From Escherichia phage Cyrano, in sequence record OV696614: a stretch of DNA of 64,000 bases; one strand, given 5' to 3'. The first letter of the stretch is position 1; the number at the start of each line of letters is the position of its first letter. The notes beneath the pieces were generated by a model. The model worked only from the letters and a program-made list of their open reading frames with translations, was not told where the DNA came from and ran no database searches. The position numbers and the translations under genes were made by a program. Of the stretch, positions 1,534-25,404 are shown in pieces.

Positions 1534-2715
1534 ATGAGCCTTTATGTTATATCAACATTTAGGTTGGTCACAATATTGCCTGTTAAAAGTGGAATTATCG
1601 TGAGCGAGCTGAAAGAGCTAATTACCGAATTAGATTTTGAACAATGGTTGGATACTGAAGGTATCGTTTATCGACGTGGAGGCGTGAGTACTCGCGGTCG
1701 TGAAGTGAATATCAAGGAGTGTCCGGTATGCGGCAGCTCCAACTGGAAGGTATATTTCAATCTGACCAGTGGCGTCGGTAAATGCTTCGCTGGTGATCAT
1801 CCCGAAGAGATTCAGTTCAATAAGCTGGTCTTCCTCAAGCACTACAGCGGCAAATCACGACGACAGTTCGAGGAATATGTGCAGAACGCCCTTCTTTCCC
1901 AGGGGTGGGCACCAAAGAAAGAAGAGCTAGTGCTTGCAAGCACAGTCGAGTTAGAGGGGCCAGTTGCACTCCCTCGTCATTACGAGCTTCCTATAGATGG
2001 CCGTCTTCCAGACTATCTGGTTGAACGAAACATATCGCCTGAAATGGCAAAATATTTTGACCTACGATACTGCGTCGAAGGCAAGCACGCCTATGTAGAT
2101 CCGTATACAGATCAGGTTAAAGGACAGATATTCGATATGCGAATACTGATACCGGTTTACGATCTGGATGGGGTAATGAAGACATTTCAGGGACGAGACA
2201 TTACCGGTACAGCAGAACGCCGCTACCTCTTTCCTATGCAGCTTCCAGCTTCAGGTAAGTTTCTCTACAACGGCCATAATGCAGTTGGCAAACAGACTGT
2301 AGTTGTCTGTGAGGGGGCGTTCGATGTTATGGGAGTTAAACGAGCTATTTTTGATGAAGAAACATTACGTGATTACGTGGAACCAATAGGAACGTTCGGG
2401 ATGCATCTATCTGGCAACACCACTCAGGATGCAGAAGATCAGTTGGGCGCGTTCCTGACGCTCAAGGCGCGTGGATTACGTAATGTGATCATGATGTGGG
2501 ATAGTGAAAAGCAAGCTATACGCAACACTATGGCCGCAGCCAAGCGACTGACCAGTATTGGTCTTAATGTCAAAGTAGCGTGTTTGGGCGAGGAAGGACT
2601 CGACCCAGGCGATGCAACGCCAGAACAAATTATCAAAGCCTATTATCGGGCAAAACCGTATACCAGACAGTTGGAGTTGCAAAGCAAGGTTTTAGGCATT
2701 AAGGCTCTATCGTAA
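1534..2715 (+). CDS. DNA primase (zinc ribbon plus TOPRIM-like)
   Basis: CPVCGSS zinc-ribbon motif, acidic VVVCEGAFD segment; start moved from track GTG 1462 to ATG 1534, which sits behind the conserved AAAAACACATG context and after a hairpin at 1460-1480. Confidence 0.65.
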   Translation: MSLYVISTFRLVTILPVKSGIIVSELKELITELDFEQWLDTEGIVYRRGGVSTRGREVNIKECPVCGSSNWKVYFNLTSGVGKCFAGDHPEEIQFNKLVFLKHYSGKSRRQFEEYVQNALLSQGWAPKKEELVLASTVELEGPVALPRHYELPIDGRLPDYLVERNISPEMAKYFDLRYCVEGKHAYVDPYTDQVKGQIFDMRILIPVYDLDGVMKTFQGRDITGTAERRYLFPMQLPASGKFLYNGHNAVGKQTVVVCEGAFDVMGVKRAIFDEETLRDYVEPIGTFGMHLSGNTTQDAEDQLGAFLTLKARGLRNVIMMWDSEKQAIRNTMAAAKRLTSIGLNVKVACLGEEGLDPGDATPEQIIKAYYRAKPYTRQLELQSKVLGIKALS

Positions 2716-2790
2716 CAAGTGCCGATAAAATAAGTAGATGATTACTTATCTTTCTGTAAGAATACTTTCATCTGTTAGCTAGGAGTTTGT

Positions 2791-3573
2791 ATGAAAGACG
2801 AAATTCAGAAATTAGCCTGCGACATCATTGATAAAACTGGTTTAGAAATCAGCGAGAGCAATCGGCTAGACATCATTGAAAAAGCCGTAAAAACAGCAAT
2901 GGATCATATCGCCACTCGTTTGGTCGAGATCCCGCTACCGGGGCTACCTTATCTGAAGGTTAAGTTACACGTATGGGGTGAACCTTCTTGTGCACGGCGT
3001 TCTGCATTAGTTGTTTTTATTAGCAAAGAAAACCCGATCAGTCTTAAAGTGCAGGTTGGGGCATGGATGGATGGCAAAGCGATCTACACAAATACCGTTT
3101 TTTGTGCGTCAAATGACAGTATTATTGAAGAGGCTATTCAAGAATCACTTCTAACTATGCATAGCTTAGTTTTGCTGGAAGACAAGCAAAACTACGAAGA
3201 GTACTTACGGTCGATAAAAGGTGAGAGAACATTGTCACTTAAAGCCGATTTCGTTACCCCGACAAACCTGTTGGAAGTCTTGCTTAATAAAGGGGCTAAT
3301 GATGCTGTAAACCTAATCAGGGAGAGCGAATATTCGACTCTTTGGGACATGTGCAAAAGCCAGTTGGATCTTGTGCATATCATTGTTGATGCGGGTAAGG
3401 CGTGTGATGGCGTAATGGCGGAATTTGCTGGGAAGGTGGTCAGGATTGCTAACGAATTACCGATGATAGAGCAAGAGGCTAAATCATACGCCACCAATCA
3501 TGTCACAGAGCTTCTTGCCCCCTATCGCTTAGAAAGCAATCAGCGCAAGATGATTAGCTGGGGAAGTTGGTAA
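2791..3573 (+). CDS. hypothetical protein
   Basis: 260-aa ORF with AGGAG RBS upstream; no recognised motifs. Confidence 0.45.
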   Translation: MKDEIQKLACDIIDKTGLEISESNRLDIIEKAVKTAMDHIATRLVEIPLPGLPYLKVKLHVWGEPSCARRSALVVFISKENPISLKVQVGAWMDGKAIYTNTVFCASNDSIIEEAIQESLLTMHSLVLLEDKQNYEEYLRSIKGERTLSLKADFVTPTNLLEVLLNKGANDAVNLIRESEYSTLWDMCKSQLDLVHIIVDAGKACDGVMAEFAGKVVRIANELPMIEQEAKSYATNHVTELLAPYRLESNQRKMISWGSW

Positions 3574-7020: not shown

Positions 7021-7095
7021 GATGGTGTAGCTCAGTGGTAGAGCAGTTGGCTGTTAACCAACTGGTCGGTGGTTCGAATCCACCCACCATCGCCA
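7021..7095 (+). tRNA. tRNA-Asn (anticodon GTT)
   Basis: Cloverleaf read by hand: acceptor gatggtg/caccatc, anticodon loop ctGTTaa, T-loop ttcgaat, 3' CCA. Confidence 0.85.
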
Positions 7096-7097
7096 AT

Positions 7098-7173
7098 GCC
7101 GGTTTAGCTCAGTTGGTAGAGCACCTGCCTTGTAAGCAGGATGTCAGCGGTTCGAATCCGTTAACCGGCACCA
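7098..7173 (+). tRNA. tRNA-Thr (anticodon TGT)
   Basis: Acceptor gccggtt/aaccggc, anticodon loop ctTGTaa, T-loop ttcgaat, 3' CCA. Confidence 0.85.
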
Positions 7174-7181
7174 ACACAATT

Positions 7182-7268
7182 GGAGAGTAGAGAGCATGGT
7201 GCTCAAGCGGTCTTGAAAACCGTCCCATTGCGCAAGCGATGATGGTTCGATTCCATTACTCTCCGCCA
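7182..7268 (+). tRNA. tRNA-Ser (anticodon TGA), type II with long variable arm
   Basis: 87 nt; acceptor ggagagt/actctcc, anticodon loop ctTGAaa, long variable arm, T-loop ttcgatt, 3' CCA. Confidence 0.8.
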
Positions 7269-18295: not shown

Positions 18296-18566
18296 AGAAT
18301 TATGGCGCTTGTTGAGGAAGTCACTCCTCTTACGCACTTTGTTTTGCCATGCCGGCAGTTAGCTTCTGCCTTTGACTATTCATGCGGCAACCCCGCATTT
18401 CGCCACAATGGGCAATTCACTTTTATGGAATAAACTGGCCGTTGTGTCGATTTAATTAGCATGGCCTTACCATGCTAATTTATTCAACTTGTACAATCCT
18501 ACAAATCTATCCACTCAGGCTTACACCGTCTTCGTTATTGTAGAAATGAGGATCATCAGCGTTGAA

Positions 18567-18782
18567 TCAGCTTAGAGCAACGACATTTGCTGCTGCTGGG
18601 CCTTTAGCACCATTCTCGATAGAGAATTCGACCTGCTGGCCTTCTTCCAAAGTGCGGAAATTATTACTCTGAATTGCCGAAAAATGTACAAAAACATCTT
18701 TACTGCCATCAGCAGGAGAAATAAAGCCAAAGCCTTTATCAGAGTTAAACCATTTTACTAAACCAGTCATTTTATTAGACAT
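18567..18782 (-). CDS. cold-shock protein, CspA family
   Basis: Start moved to internal ATG giving about 70 aa: [30 protein letters not shown] (RNP1/RNP2 motifs). Confidence 0.85.
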
Positions 18783-19111
18783 AGATATTACCTTCTTAAT
18801 TTTGTGAGCCACATAGTGCGGCGAGAATTTGATCTGTATAGATTGGGACTTACTTAGGCACTTAAGGAGGAGACTCACGAAGAAGGGAAATCAGAAGATA
18901 ACACTGAACTGAGACTGCTTTACTAAAACTGCTTACATAAGGTCTGTCTTGCAAACCAACGATGCTATTAACGCATACCCCTTCTTTTCATGCAACCTTT
19001 ATTTTTCAAAGATAACTAATTTTTGTCACCATTGGTTTAGTAAACGTTAACGAACCAGACGATGCCAGACACCTTTACAGAGAACAGATGCCCGCCAATT
19101 GGCGGGCATCA

Positions 19112-23064: not shown

Positions 23065-25404
23065 ATGGCAAAAGGAAAATCCGCACTGGCACTTGCTCTG
23101 AAAAAGAAAATCGGTAGCAACGACGAAATTCAGAAAGTAACTCATTGGATTGACACAGGCTTTCCTCCGTTAAACAAAGCTATTTCCGGTCGTTACGATG
23201 GCGGTTTCCCATGTGGTCGTATCGTAGAAGTATTCGGGCCACCAAGCGCGGGGAAATGTGTTACCGCAGACACCATGCTGCTGACGGAGCGTGGAATGGT
23301 AACAGTGAAAGAACTGTTTGAGATTGAGGGGCACAAAGCAACATGCACTACTCGCGATGTAGAGCATAACGTTGGACTCATCAATGAAAATGGCGTGATA
23401 GAGAAGACCTCACACCTGACATGGAACAACCGTCGCAAATTCAAGCGTATTAAGCTGGCATCAGGCGGTTATATCGAGGCTACGTTCCGTCACCCAATCC
23501 GTGTGGTTGACGACTTAGGTAATGTCGTCTGGCGACATGCTGAAAAAATCAGTGTAGGCGACACGATTCCTTCAATGGTTGGCACACATCAATTCGGCGA
23601 TCAGCACCTGGATGCCAATATCGCAAAACTGATGGGCTATTTAATTGCTGACGGATACGTGGCCTCTGAAAATTCAGTGAATTTTTCTAACACAGATCCT
23701 TTCATCAAGGATGAGTACTACCGCCTCATTTCGCTGGTATCAGACAAGATGCCAGTTACGAGAAAACATAACGGCTCGGAAGACCATGTGCTGTTTAGCA
23801 AAGAGGTGCGTTCGCTGCTTTTTAAAGAGTATGGTCTGGAGTATGAGAAAGCTGCTGGCAAGCAGGTTCCGTTGAGTGTGCGTCGCGCCAATAGCGAGGC
23901 TCAAATTGCATTCCTTCGCGGCTACTTTGAGCTGGAATGCCACGTCAATGATGGTCGCTGCATTGAGGTTGTGAGCGCGAGTGGGCTGCTGCTACAGCAA
24001 ATTCGCCTCATGCTCCTGAATCTGGGGATTACGTCAACTATCTCTGAAAAACACGTCGCGGGTTATGAAAATACATATTACCGGCTGTCATTCAGTGGCT
24101 CTAATTACGACCTTTTTCTGTCAACGATTGGTTTCGAATCTCCGGCACGTTTATCAGTGGCAACCAAACGGGACATTGGTTTTGACCGCACTTACTCAGG
24201 CTATGTTCCGCACATCAGCGGCTTAGTGAAATCACTCTACGAGTCGCTCACCAAGACCACCCGTGAAGACTACGCTCTGGTAGACCACGTTATTGGCCGC
24301 GGCGATCGTGTCGGAATAGACAAACTGCGAGAAATCTATGTCTCCTTCATTGGCAGAAAGAATCGTTTTAACGAGCATCTGTTTGCACAACTGGCAGCGG
24401 TAATTGGCTCTAACTTGTTCTACGACGAAGTCGTGGCTATTGAGGAAGGTGAAGCACCAACGTTCGACGTAGCGATGCCGGAAACACACTCTTTCTGGTC
24501 TAACGGGATTATCAGCCACAACACATTCCTTGCAACAGCAGCGATGATCTCCGCTCAAAAACAAGATGGTCTGGCGGTATTCCTCGATCATGAAAACAGT
24601 TTTGACGTTGGCCTGGCTGTAGCCAATGGCCTGAACGCAGATGAGGATGACGGTCAGTGGGTATACAAGCAGCCAGATACCTTCGAAGACTCTGTAGAGT
24701 TGATCGGCACAATACTTAAATTGGTTCGTGATGAAGAGCTTATCCCCGAATCAGCACCTATCTGTATCGTGGCTGACTCTCTTGCGTCTATGGTTCCGAA
24801 CTCCAAAGCCGAGAAGTTCGAAAAGATGGCTGAAGGCACTGCCAAAGACAAAGATCAGCTAAACATGAACGACAATACGGCACTGGCTCGTGCGACGAGT
24901 GCGAACTTCCCTACTCTGGCTTTGTGGGCACGCAAATACAACGCCTGCATCATCTTCTTGAATCAGGTTCGCACAAAAATCGGTGTAATGTTTGGCGACC
25001 CTACTACGTCGCCAGGTGGAGATTCACCGAAGTTTTACGCTTCTGTGCGCATCCGTCTCGGTGCATCGGTGATGAAGGATGGGAAAGAGAAGATCGGCCA
25101 GGACGTAGGCGCAGAATGCATCAAAAACAAAGTTGCACCACCGTATGGCAAATGCACCTGGAAATTCTACTTCGATCCTACTCGTGGCCTCGACGTTATC
25201 GAGTCGCTCGTCGAGTACATGCTGGAAGAAGGATACCTGCCAAAGAACGCCAGCGGGCGAGTTGAAATTGGTGACAAGAAATACACCAAATCGCAGATCG
25301 TCGACATGTATCGGGAGAAGCCATTAGCAGAAATCATTGCTGCGTTACAGGCGATAGATGACCGACGAGAGAAGACATCACCAACAGAAGAACTAGAAGA
25401 TTAA
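23065..25404 (+). CDS. recA: RecA-like recombinase interrupted by an intein
   Basis: 779 aa; extein GRIVEVFGPPSAGK..TFLATAAMISAQ resembles the RecA P-loop region GRIVEIYGPESSGKTT; 422-aa insertion inside the Walker A motif. Confidence 0.85.
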   Translation: MAKGKSALALALKKKIGSNDEIQKVTHWIDTGFPPLNKAISGRYDGGFPCGRIVEVFGPPSAGKCVTADTMLLTERGMVTVKELFEIEGHKATCTTRDVEHNVGLINENGVIEKTSHLTWNNRRKFKRIKLASGGYIEATFRHPIRVVDDLGNVVWRHAEKISVGDTIPSMVGTHQFGDQHLDANIAKLMGYLIADGYVASENSVNFSNTDPFIKDEYYRLISLVSDKMPVTRKHNGSEDHVLFSKEVRSLLFKEYGLEYEKAAGKQVPLSVRRANSEAQIAFLRGYFELECHVNDGRCIEVVSASGLLLQQIRLMLLNLGITSTISEKHVAGYENTYYRLSFSGSNYDLFLSTIGFESPARLSVATKRDIGFDRTYSGYVPHISGLVKSLYESLTKTTREDYALVDHVIGRGDRVGIDKLREIYVSFIGRKNRFNEHLFAQLAAVIGSNLFYDEVVAIEEGEAPTFDVAMPETHSFWSNGIISHNTFLATAAMISAQKQDGLAVFLDHENSFDVGLAVANGLNADEDDGQWVYKQPDTFEDSVELIGTILKLVRDEELIPESAPICIVADSLASMVPNSKAEKFEKMAEGTAKDKDQLNMNDNTALARATSANFPTLALWARKYNACIIFLNQVRTKIGVMFGDPTTSPGGDSPKFYASVRIRLGASVMKDGKEKIGQDVGAECIKNKVAPPYGKCTWKFYFDPTRGLDVIESLVEYMLEEGYLPKNASGRVEIGDKKYTKSQIVDMYREKPLAEIIAALQAIDDRREKTSPTEELED
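23257..24522 (+). mobile_element. Intein with LAGLIDADG homing endonuclease domain
   Basis: Begins with Cys right after GK of the P-loop, ends SHN followed by Thr that completes GKT; LAGLIDADG-like blocks LMGYLIADGYV and FLRGYFELECHV. Confidence 0.8.

What the first reader, a model, noticed from the sequence alone, without database searches (positions are those of the whole stretch)
23257..24522. Intein with LAGLIDADG homing endonuclease splitting the Walker A P-loop of the RecA-like recombinase
The RecA-like protein reads GRIVEVFGPPSAGK, then a 422-aa insertion starting with Cys and ending in His-Asn, then Thr-FLATAAM. Removing the insertion restores a canonical GPPSAGKT P-loop. The insertion carries two LAGLIDADG-like blocks (LMGYLIADGYV, FLRGYFELECHV). 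This is a self-splicing mobile element in an essential catalytic motif, so the recombinase is active only after splicing.
Basis: seen in the sequence. Interest (0 to 1): 0.7.

Follow-up and report, generated by a model that had tools for sequence, protein, structure and literature searches.

The report
Known intein in phage-plasmid RecA P-loop
The RecA-like recombinase gene of this E. coli SSU5-type phage-plasmid is interrupted, inside its ATP-binding loop, by a self-splicing protein element (an intein) that carries its own homing nuclease; the reading is correct, but this same intein was catalogued in 2015 and sits on hundreds of sequenced plasmids.

Summary
ORF 23065-25404 (+) encodes a 779-aa protein. 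Residues 65-486 (nt 23257-24522) are a 422-aa insert that starts with Cys and ends His-Asn, followed by Thr. Removing it restores GPPSAGKT.

The insert matches the Pfam intein-splicing and LAGLIDADG_3 models. Its AlphaFold model matches solved intein homing endonucleases: the TliVMA intein, PI-PfuI, PI-PkoII and PI-SceI.

Intein-free alleles exist. The E. coli phage-plasmid CMS-2020a encodes a 357-aa protein that matches the predicted spliced product apart from its C-terminal tail.

The intein is 97-99.8% identical among plasmids whose exteins are only 80-87% identical. All six occupied alleles examined share silent marker bases at -7 and +3. This points to recent homing.

The element is not new. 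Topilina et al. 2015 (NAR 43:6631, Table 1) list it as RecA intein "c2 (65-486)" in E. coli, Enterobacter and Salmonella. RefSeq labels some copies "intein-containing recombinase RecA".

What this analysis adds:
- The host gene is a phage-plasmid RecA-like gene, not chromosomal recA. No E. coli chromosome carries it.
- About 55% of E. coli copies of the gene are occupied.

Splicing and DNA cleavage remain untested.

The parts
23065..25404 (+). Precursor ORF (779 aa plus stop): RecA-like recombinase interrupted by the intein
   Evidence: The whole protein hits Pfam RecA, LAGLIDADG_3 and Intein_splicing. PHROG 9666 is a 779-position profile with the same architecture.
23065..23256 (+). N-extein (aa 1-64), ending in GPPSAGK, the first seven residues of Walker A (nt 23236-23256)
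   Evidence: Aligns to GRIVEIYGPESSGK of E. coli RecA.
23257..24522 (+). Intein, 422 aa: Hint splicing domain (about aa 1-110 and about 386-422) with a nested LAGLIDADG homing endonuclease (about aa 117-385)
   Evidence: AlphaFold2 model pLDDT 80.2, pTM 0.84. Foldseek vs PDB: 7qss TliVMA intein E=4.3e-19, PI-PfuI 1.8e-16, PI-PkoII 1.4e-15, PI-SceI about 1e-8.
23257..23286 (+). Intein block A (CVTADTMLLT); Cys1 is the first nucleophile
   Evidence: NCBIfam intein_Nterm TIGR01445 E=7.8e-9 over aa 1-83.
23464..23505 (+). Intein block B (GGYIEATFRHPIRV) with T76-x-x-H79
   Evidence: Conserved as AT.(N/R)HP.RV in most of the family members that cover this region (alignment A1).
23626..23661 (+). 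LAGLIDADG motif 1 (KLMGYLIADGYV); predicted catalytic Asp132
   Evidence: Aligns residue for residue with LGYLIADG of the TliVMA intein.
23908..23946 (+). LAGLIDADG motif 2 (AFLRGYFELECHV); predicted catalytic Glu227
   Evidence: Pfam LAGLIDADG_3 covers aa 215-292. E227 aligns with the Asp of AYIVCDG in the TliVMA intein.
24457..24522 (+). Intein blocks F and G (PTFDVAMPETHSFWSNG-IISHN) with D404, H411, H421 and N422
   Evidence: This is the most conserved stretch of the family. NCBIfam intein_Cterm TIGR01443 16.9 bits vs cut-off 15.6.
24523..25404 (+). C-extein (aa 487-779) plus stop. Thr487 (nt 24523-24525) is both the +1 splicing nucleophile and the Walker A Thr.
   Evidence: The codon is ACA in all six intein-containing alleles examined, versus ACG or ACC in the empty alleles.

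Best explanation
This is a canonical class-1 intein with a nested LAGLIDADG homing endonuclease. It is inserted between Lys and Thr of the Walker A P-loop (GPPSAGK|T) of the RecA-like recombinase of an SSU5-type phage-plasmid of E. coli. It is the published 'RecA-c2 (65-486)' intein.

Inferred mechanism, from established intein chemistry:
1. The 779-aa precursor folds.
2. Cys1 makes an N-S acyl shift.
3. The thioester is transferred to the hydroxyl of Thr+1.
4. Asn422 cyclises, assisted by H421, and releases the intein.
5. An O-N shift yields a 357-aa recombinase with an intact GPPSAGKT loop and a free 422-aa endonuclease.

When an occupied and an empty phage-plasmid meet in one cell, the endonuclease is inferred to cut the empty site. 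Recombinational repair then copies the intein in, together with a few flanking bases.

Shown here: the anatomy, the fold, the empty alleles, and the population signature of horizontal spread. Inferred: splicing, cleavage, and loss of ATPase activity in the unspliced precursor.
For: - Exact boundaries, and restoration of the P-loop on removal.
- HMM hits to the intein splicing, N- and C-terminal intein, LAGLIDADG_3 and RecA models.
- Fold match to solved intein endonucleases.
- Natural intein-free alleles in Escherichia phage CMS-2020a (357 aa, same as the predicted spliced product apart from the C-terminal tail) and in SSU5 (358 aa).
- Intein DNA is 97.2-99.8% identical among E. coli, Klebsiella, Enterobacter and Cronobacter plasmids whose exteins are 80-87% identical.
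- PhiR41_1 (occupied) and CMS-2020a (empty) differ in the 879-nt C-extein at a single base, position +3. The nearest upstream difference is at -7. All six occupied alleles share GCGGGGAAA|ACATTCCT.
- Intein substitutions are mostly synonymous (21 syn vs 12 nonsyn codons; 56 vs 19 for the most divergent copy), a rough dN/dS of 0.1-0.2.
- Topilina et al. 2015, Table 1, lists 'c2 (65-486)' in E. coli (including strain MS 145-7), Enterobacter and Salmonella. The MS 145-7 plasmid NZ_CP146657.1 carries this intein at 99.5% identity.
Against: - No experiment on splicing or cleavage of this intein was found in the searched literature.
- LAGLIDADG motif 2 ends E-C rather than D-G, so endonuclease activity is not guaranteed.
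- Extein divergence mostly predates the intein's spread. Extein conservation therefore says little about whether the recombinase still works after invasion.
- Some copies are visibly decaying (E. albertii truncated C-extein; in-frame TGA in metagenomic relative L011).
- The co-conversion inference rests on six occupied and two empty alleles.
Confidence: 0.9

Rival explanations
1. The intein still splices, but its endonuclease is dead. The patchy distribution would then come from vertical descent, occasional precise loss, and ordinary homologous recombination between co-resident phage-plasmids, not from endonuclease-driven homing.
For: Motif 2 has a non-consensus E-C ending. More distant family members have clearly lost the endonuclease motifs (P0007, P0012, P0013). 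Phage-plasmids recombine frequently anyway.
Against: The intein is 99.7-99.8% identical in Klebsiella, Enterobacter and Cronobacter plasmids whose exteins are 82-87% identical, and similarity drops within about 10-20 nt of each junction. The isogenic pair differs only at +3 and -7 near the site. Generalised recombination would give long, random tracts. Mostly synonymous change runs across the endonuclease domain. Glu is an accepted catalytic residue in LAGLIDADG enzymes (own knowledge).
Confidence: 0.12
2. The insert no longer splices. The interrupted gene would be a dead recombinase carried as a pseudogene that still translates, with the phage-plasmid relying on host RecA.
For: Splicing is untested. 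The recombinase may be dispensable, since many relatives (Yersinia 0 of 63 occupied, Salmonella 1 of 42) and some degraded plasmids show no uniform state of the gene. PGAP often names the product only 'LAGLIDADG family homing endonuclease'.
Against: All splicing residues are intact (C1, T76/H79, D404, H411, H421, N422, T+1) and are conserved in relatives as low as 27-44% identity. The ORF is uninterrupted over 2.3 kb here and in the five complete occupied copies translated. A further 239 PLSDB records carry at least 80% of the intein DNA, but their reading frames were not checked.
Confidence: 0.05
3. The insert is a native RecA-family accessory domain, or a free-standing endonuclease gene fused by an annotation artefact, and not an intein.
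For: None beyond the RefSeq product name.
Against: Closely related alleles lack exactly these 1266 nt and keep the reading frame. The insert hits intein-specific models and intein structures, not RecA. There is no stop or start signal at the boundaries.
Confidence: 0.01

Closest known systems
RecA intein at insertion point c2 (65-486) of E. coli, Enterobacter and Salmonella (Topilina et al. 2015, NAR 43:6631, Table 1 and Fig. 1; PMC4513877)
   Same: Same residue coordinates (65-486), same taxa, and the same P-loop site. Strain MS 145-7, listed in that paper, carries this intein at 99.5% DNA identity on plasmid NZ_CP146657.1. This is the same element.
   Different: [quoted passage not shown] Here every E. 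coli copy is plasmid-borne and none is chromosomal. The host replicons are SSU5-type phage-plasmids.
Pyrococcus horikoshii RadA intein (insertion point c1; PDB 4e2t)
   Same: Same insertion point at the end of the P-loop of a RecA-superfamily ATPase. The Hint domain is structurally similar (Foldseek E about 1e-4). Cys1 and Thr+1 chemistry is the same (own knowledge).
   Different: Pho RadA is a mini-intein without an endonuclease, and its sequence is unrelated beyond the Hint fold. Topilina et al. inferred independent invasion. Conditional splicing, controlled by temperature and extein contacts, has been shown for Pho RadA and is untested here.
Mycobacterium tuberculosis RecA intein PI-MtuI (site a) and M. 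leprae RecA intein (site b)
   Same: LAGLIDADG inteins in a RecA gene. The Hint domain is similar (2in9/2in0).
   Different: They occupy different insertion sites (aa 252 and about 206, at the monomer-monomer interface) and sit in chromosomal recA. There is no close sequence relationship (NF007072 match E=7.2e-6 over the endonuclease part only).
P-loop inteins of Herelleviridae phages: Staphylococcus phage Twort helicase ORF006 and Bacillus phage fHSPT3 RecA-like protein
   Same: Full-length homologues of this intein (31-34% identity over all 422 aa, E about 1e-48 to 5e-54). They are also inserted right after the Walker A Lys: ATNGGK|C...NHN|T and GKPGGGK|C...NHN|S.
   Different: Different hosts (phages of Firmicutes). 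In Twort the host protein is different (a helicase). The +1 residue is Ser in fHSPT3.
Solved HEN-containing archaeal inteins: TliVMA (7qss), PI-PfuI (1dq3), PI-PkoII (2cw7), and yeast PI-SceI
   Same: Overall two-domain architecture and fold (Foldseek E 4e-19 to 1e-8, TM 0.4-0.68). The LAGLIDADG motifs align.
   Different: Only 10-21% identity, with different host proteins and target sites.

Membership tests
Intein (class 1, canonical) | In-frame insertion whose removal restores a contiguous, conserved host protein | tested here: met
   Removal gives GPPSAGKT and a 357-aa RecA-like protein. Natural alleles lack exactly these 1266 nt.
Intein (class 1, canonical) | Cys/Ser at position 1; block B T-x-x-H | tested here: met
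   C1, T76 and H79. TIGR01445 intein_Nterm 36.4 bits vs cut-off 24.5.
Intein (class 1, canonical) | Blocks F and G with a C-terminal His-Asn, followed by a Cys/Ser/Thr +1 nucleophile | tested here: met
   D404, H411, H421-N422, then T487. TIGR01443 16.9 bits vs cut-off 15.6. PF14890 46.5 bits vs cut-off 35.8.
Intein (class 1, canonical) | Hint (horseshoe beta) fold formed by the N- and C-terminal segments | tested here: met
   The AF2 model (pLDDT 80, pTM 0.84) matches mini-intein structures 4oz6, 1am2, 4e2t and 2in9 at E 1e-5 to 2e-3, and full-length inteins at E down to 4e-19.
Intein (class 1, canonical) | Autocatalytic protein splicing that yields ligated exteins | not testable with these tools
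   Needs expression plus SDS-PAGE and mass spectrometry. No published test was found.
LAGLIDADG homing endonuclease (two-motif, monomeric) | Two LAGLIDADG motifs, each ending in an acidic catalytic residue | tested here: met
   LMGYLIADG (D132) and LRGYFELEC (E227). PF14528 65.7 bits vs cut-off 22.5. Both align with the TliVMA motifs.
LAGLIDADG homing endonuclease (two-motif, monomeric) | Pseudo-dimeric alpha-beta-beta-alpha-beta-beta-alpha fold | tested here: met
   The model matches PI-PfuI, PI-PkoII and PI-SceI, and the free-standing I-DmoI (TM to target about 0.6, E about 2e-3).
LAGLIDADG homing endonuclease (two-motif, monomeric) | Site-specific cleavage of the intein-less allele, and homing | tested here: inconclusive
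   The evidence is indirect only: incongruent identity of intein vs extein, and shared flanking silent markers at -7 and +3. Cleavage itself cannot be tested here.
RecA-c2 intein allele (Topilina et al. 2015) | Insertion after the Walker A Lys of a RecA-type protein at residues 65-486, in Enterobacteriaceae | tested here: met
   Same coordinates. A strain listed in the paper carries the same DNA at 99.5% identity.
Bacterial RecA (equivalog TIGR02012) | Full-length match above the equivalog cut-off, including the RecA C-terminal domain | tested here: not met
   Joined exteins score 153.6 bits vs cut-off 325.3. Only the Pfam RecA core matches (145.6 bits vs 27). PHROG 97 'UvsX-like recombinase' E=1.6e-91. 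The protein is RecA-like and phage-type, not the cellular orthologue.

The most novel reading that the evidence does not exclude
The intein may not be merely parasitic. It could act as a conditional-splicing switch, as shown for the Pho RadA intein at the same site. Under this reading it holds the phage-plasmid recombinase inactive during plasmid-state lysogeny and releases it on a cue such as DNA damage, redox change or ssDNA at induction. The ~55% occupancy in E. coli would then reflect selection as well as homing.
Probability: 0.08. Interest if true: 0.55.

Novelty: already known. Interest (0 to 1): 0.2.

Why it matters
The finding matters little as a discovery. The element is in the literature (2015), in PHROGs (phrog_9666) and in RefSeq annotation.

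Three modest points come out of this analysis.

1. The 'first E. coli intein' belongs to SSU5-type phage-plasmids, which are common carriers of resistance genes in Enterobacteriaceae. It does not belong to the cell's recA.
2. It is polymorphic: about 55% of E. coli copies and about one third of PLSDB copies are occupied. Near-isogenic occupied and empty pairs exist, so it would make a convenient natural system for studying intein homing in E. coli.
3. RefSeq usually names the whole precursor 'LAGLIDADG family homing endonuclease', which hides a recombinase from functional surveys of phage-plasmids.

Tried and rejected
- Literature searches for 'intein' with SSU5, phage-plasmid, UvsX or prophage found nothing about this element in a phage-plasmid context.
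- The MAFFT DNA alignment of occupied and empty alleles misplaced the short N-extein of the empty alleles. It was replaced by splitting the sequences at the junction and comparing the parts directly.
- One script timed out and one failed on file names. One paper query failed on a term that was too short.
- No supplementary tables of the 2015 paper are held.
- A native RecA domain or a fused free-standing endonuclease was considered and rejected because of the empty alleles.
- The extein dN/dS (13 nonsyn vs 129 syn codons) was considered as evidence for post-invasion function. It was rejected because that divergence predates the intein's spread.
- An alternative genetic code was considered for the in-frame TGA in relative L011. 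It was rejected because neighbouring genes read as long ORFs under the standard code.
Full report
**1. Observation**

The ORF at 23065..25404 (+) encodes 779 aa. Translation places ...GRIVEVFGPPSAGK at residues 51-64, Cys at 65...GIISHN ending at 486, and Thr-FLATAAM from 487.

The insert is therefore nt 23257-24522, 422 aa, and the joined flanks give 357 aa with an intact GPPSAGKT.

There is no compositional break. GC stays at 0.46-0.51 across the gene.

**2. What the parts are**

- **Exteins.** The joined exteins hit Pfam RecA (E=2.6e-42, 145.6 bits vs cut-off 27). They also hit PHROG 97 'UvsX-like recombinase' (E=1.6e-91) and solved RecA structures (E about 1e-31 to 1e-35).
  - In the alignment to E. 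coli RecA, GRIVEVFGPPSAGKTFL pairs with GRIVEIYGPESSGKTTL. The insertion therefore falls between the Walker A Lys and Thr. These are K72 and T73 in E. coli numbering (own knowledge).
  - The extein scores below the NCBIfam RecA equivalog cut-off (153.6 vs 325.3 bits). It is a phage-type RecA-like protein, not the cellular orthologue.
- **Insert.** It hits Pfam Intein_splicing (46.5 bits vs 35.8) and LAGLIDADG_3 (65.7 vs 22.5). It also hits NCBIfam intein_Nterm and intein_Cterm. Partial hits fall on the intein-bearing portions of models of archaeal RFC, IF-2, GyrA, RNR and DnaB.
- **Blocks**:
  - A: C1
  - B: T76-x-x-H79
  - C: LMGYLIADG (D132)
  - E: LRGYFELEC (E227)
  - F: PTFDVAMPETHSFWSNG (D404, H411)
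  - G: IISHN (H421, N422), followed by T+1
- **Alignment to a solved intein.** Phmmer against PDB aligns both LAGLIDADG motifs with those of the TliVMA intein. E227 falls on the catalytic Asp of the second motif.
- **Structure.** An AlphaFold2 model built on a 10-sequence family alignment has pLDDT 80.2 and pTM 0.84. Foldseek against PDB returns intein endonucleases first:
  - TliVMA intein, 4.3e-19
  - PI-PfuI, 1.8e-16
  - PI-PkoII, 1.4e-15
  - PI-SceI, about 1e-8
  - then mini-inteins, including Pho RadA and Mtu RecA, and I-DmoI

**3. Genomic setting**

The window is an SSU5-type phage-plasmid.

- The gene is 98% identical to Escherichia phage PhiR41_1 and 99.4% identical to E. coli plasmids of about 110 kb with an IncFIB repA.
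- The neighbourhood is shared with SSU5: DNA pol III alpha, 5'-3' exonuclease, a small ORF, the recA-like gene, then an SPFH protein.

**4. Empty sites**

- Escherichia phage CMS-2020a encodes a 357-aa protein. It matches the predicted spliced product except for one Asp/Glu change and the last 11 residues. SSU5 encodes a 358-aa intein-free homologue.
- PhiR41_1 (occupied) and CMS-2020a (empty) differ over the whole 879-nt C-extein at one base. That base is position +3, in the Thr codon (ACA vs ACG). The closest upstream difference is at -7 (GCG vs GCA).
- All six occupied alleles examined (E. coli x2, Klebsiella, Enterobacter, Cronobacter, E. albertii) share GCGGGGAAA|ACATTCCT, whatever their background. 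The two empty alleles read GCAGGGAAA|ACGTTCCT and GCCGGTAAA|ACCTTTTT.
- This pattern fits short co-conversion tracts carried in with the intein.

**5. Evidence of horizontal spread**

- Intein DNA identity is 97.2-99.8% between plasmids whose exteins are 80-87% identical. For example, Klebsiella p4727 vs Cronobacter shows intein 99.8% against exteins 82-85%.
- Conversely, Enterobacter (occupied) and SSU5 (empty) have 96.9% identical exteins.
- Intein substitutions are mostly synonymous: 21 syn vs 12 nonsyn codons, and 56 vs 19 for the E. albertii copy. This gives a rough dN/dS of 0.1-0.2, including across the endonuclease domain.

Together these observations argue for recent, repeated endonuclease-mediated homing. 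Cleavage itself is inferred, not shown.

**6. Distribution**

| Collection | Records with the recA-like gene or C-extein | Records with the intein |
|---|---|---|
| E. coli complete genomes (5426) | 219 (C-extein) | 120 (about 55%) |
| PLSDB plasmids, all | 743 | 247 |
| Escherichia | 228 | 122 |
| Klebsiella | 279 | 71 |
| Enterobacter | 90 | 41 |
| Citrobacter | 20 | 6 |
| Salmonella | 42 | 1 |
| Yersinia | 63 | 0 |

All E. coli copies are on plasmids and none is on a chromosome. The PLSDB counts come from megablast, so diverged exteins are under-counted.

**7. Wider family**

- A protein search with the intein finds 27-44% identical inteins at the same GxxxxGK|C...SHN|T site in other RecA proteins.
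  - One is a metagenomic SSU5-like replication module (L011).
  - Another is a cellular-type RecA with the RecA_C domain on a 550-kb contig (P0007). Its endonuclease motifs are lost.
  - P0012 and P0013 are likewise degenerate or shortened.
  - This spread of states fits the usual intein life cycle of invasion, decay and loss.
- Full-length 31-34% relatives occur in Herelleviridae phages. They too sit directly after a Walker A Lys:
  - Bacillus phage fHSPT3 RecA-like: GKPGGGK|C...NHN|S
  - Staphylococcus phage Twort helicase: ATNGGK|C...NHN|T

**8. Mechanism (inferred from established intein chemistry)**

1. Cys1 makes an N-S acyl shift.
2. The acyl group is transferred to the Thr+1 hydroxyl.
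3. Asn422 forms a succinimide, assisted by H421, and the intein is released.
4. An O-N shift joins the exteins.

Thr+1 is both the splicing nucleophile and the Mg-ATP-coordinating Walker A residue. This helps explain why the site cannot mutate away from the intein. A 422-aa domain between Lys and Thr should prevent P-loop formation, so the precursor is expected to be ATPase-dead. That is an inference and was not tested.

**9. Comparison with the literature**

- Topilina et al. 2015 (PMC4513877) mined RadA and RecA inteins. Their Table 1 lists 'c2 (65-486)' for eight E. coli strains, two Enterobacter and one Salmonella.
- The coordinates are the same as here. Strain MS 145-7 from their list carries the intein at 99.5% identity on plasmid NZ_CP146657.1.
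- That paper does not mention phage, prophage, horizontal transfer or LAGLIDADG. It shows no experiment on this intein.
- Novikova et al. 2015/16 count RecA among the P-loop intein hosts.
- RefSeq annotates some Enterobacter copies as 'intein-containing recombinase RecA' and most others as 'LAGLIDADG family homing endonuclease'.
- PHROGs holds the architecture as phrog_9666.
- No paper was found that links the intein to SSU5-like phage-plasmids.

**10. Verdict**

The novelty class is 'already known'.

The analysis adds three modest points: the phage-plasmid (not chromosomal) host, the occupancy figures, and a clean sequence signature of ongoing homing with near-isogenic occupied and empty pairs.

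Interest is 0.2. The most novel reading not excluded is a conditional-splicing switch of the phage-plasmid recombinase, by analogy with Pho RadA. Nothing here supports it directly, and its probability is about 0.08.

Noticed in passing
window 18542-18960 (-): A full-length match to the Rfam cspA thermoregulator (RF01766, 187.6 bits) lies upstream of a cspG-like cold-shock gene. The phage-plasmid therefore carries a host-type RNA thermosensor and cold-shock protein.
   Followed up: no
window 7021-7268 (+): A cluster of three tRNA genes: Asn-GTT, Thr-TGT and Ser-TGA.
   Followed up: no
L011 6001-8388 (ENA metagenome contig k141_7541): A 44%-identical intein sits at the same P-loop site of a RecA-like gene, in a syntenic module (pol III alpha, gp32, 5'-3' exonuclease, recA, ligase). 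It has an in-frame TGA at the conserved block F Trp (THSF*SNGFISHN|T), so the gene was called as two ORFs. This is probably a nonsense mutation or a sequencing error.
   Followed up: partly
L007 (E. albertii plasmid p3RM15115, 62 kb), gene from 1306: This is the most divergent copy of the intein (93.7%). The intein is intact, but the C-extein reading frame breaks after about residue 600, giving a 614-aa product. The gene is unannotated in the record. It looks like a decaying copy on a shrunken plasmid.
   Followed up: partly
L008 (NZ_CP075717.1, IncF conjugative plasmid) 2501-3084: Only the 3' half of the intein matches (about 46% of the query); whether the adjoining C-extein is present was not checked. 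It lies near IS3 and is annotated as a hypothetical protein. It is a phage-plasmid fragment captured by a conjugative plasmid.
   Followed up: no
CP059946.1 60010-63109 (hit H49): An intein-containing recA matches in two pieces spread over 3.1 kb instead of 2.3 kb. This implies an insertion of about 760 bp in the gene. No feature is annotated there.
   Followed up: no
RefSeq/PLSDB records matched: Product naming is inconsistent. The 779-aa precursor is usually called 'LAGLIDADG family homing endonuclease', sometimes 'recombinase RecA', and only in some Enterobacter plasmids 'intein-containing recombinase RecA'.
   Followed up: partly
L010 3001-5166 (GCA_027484465.1, 550-kb contig): A cellular-type RecA with the RecA_C domain carries a related intein (37% identity) at the same GPESSGK|C...SHN|T site. 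Its LAGLIDADG motifs have been lost, so it is a degenerate relative outside the Enterobacteriaceae.
   Followed up: partly
L012 1288-3765 and L013 1060-4074: Full-length 31-34% relatives of the intein in Herelleviridae phages are also inserted right after a Walker A Lys. One is in a RecA-like protein (Bacillus phage fHSPT3, +1 Ser). The other is in a helicase (Staphylococcus phage Twort ORF006, +1 Thr). This suggests a phage-borne clade of P-loop-targeting inteins.
   Followed up: partly
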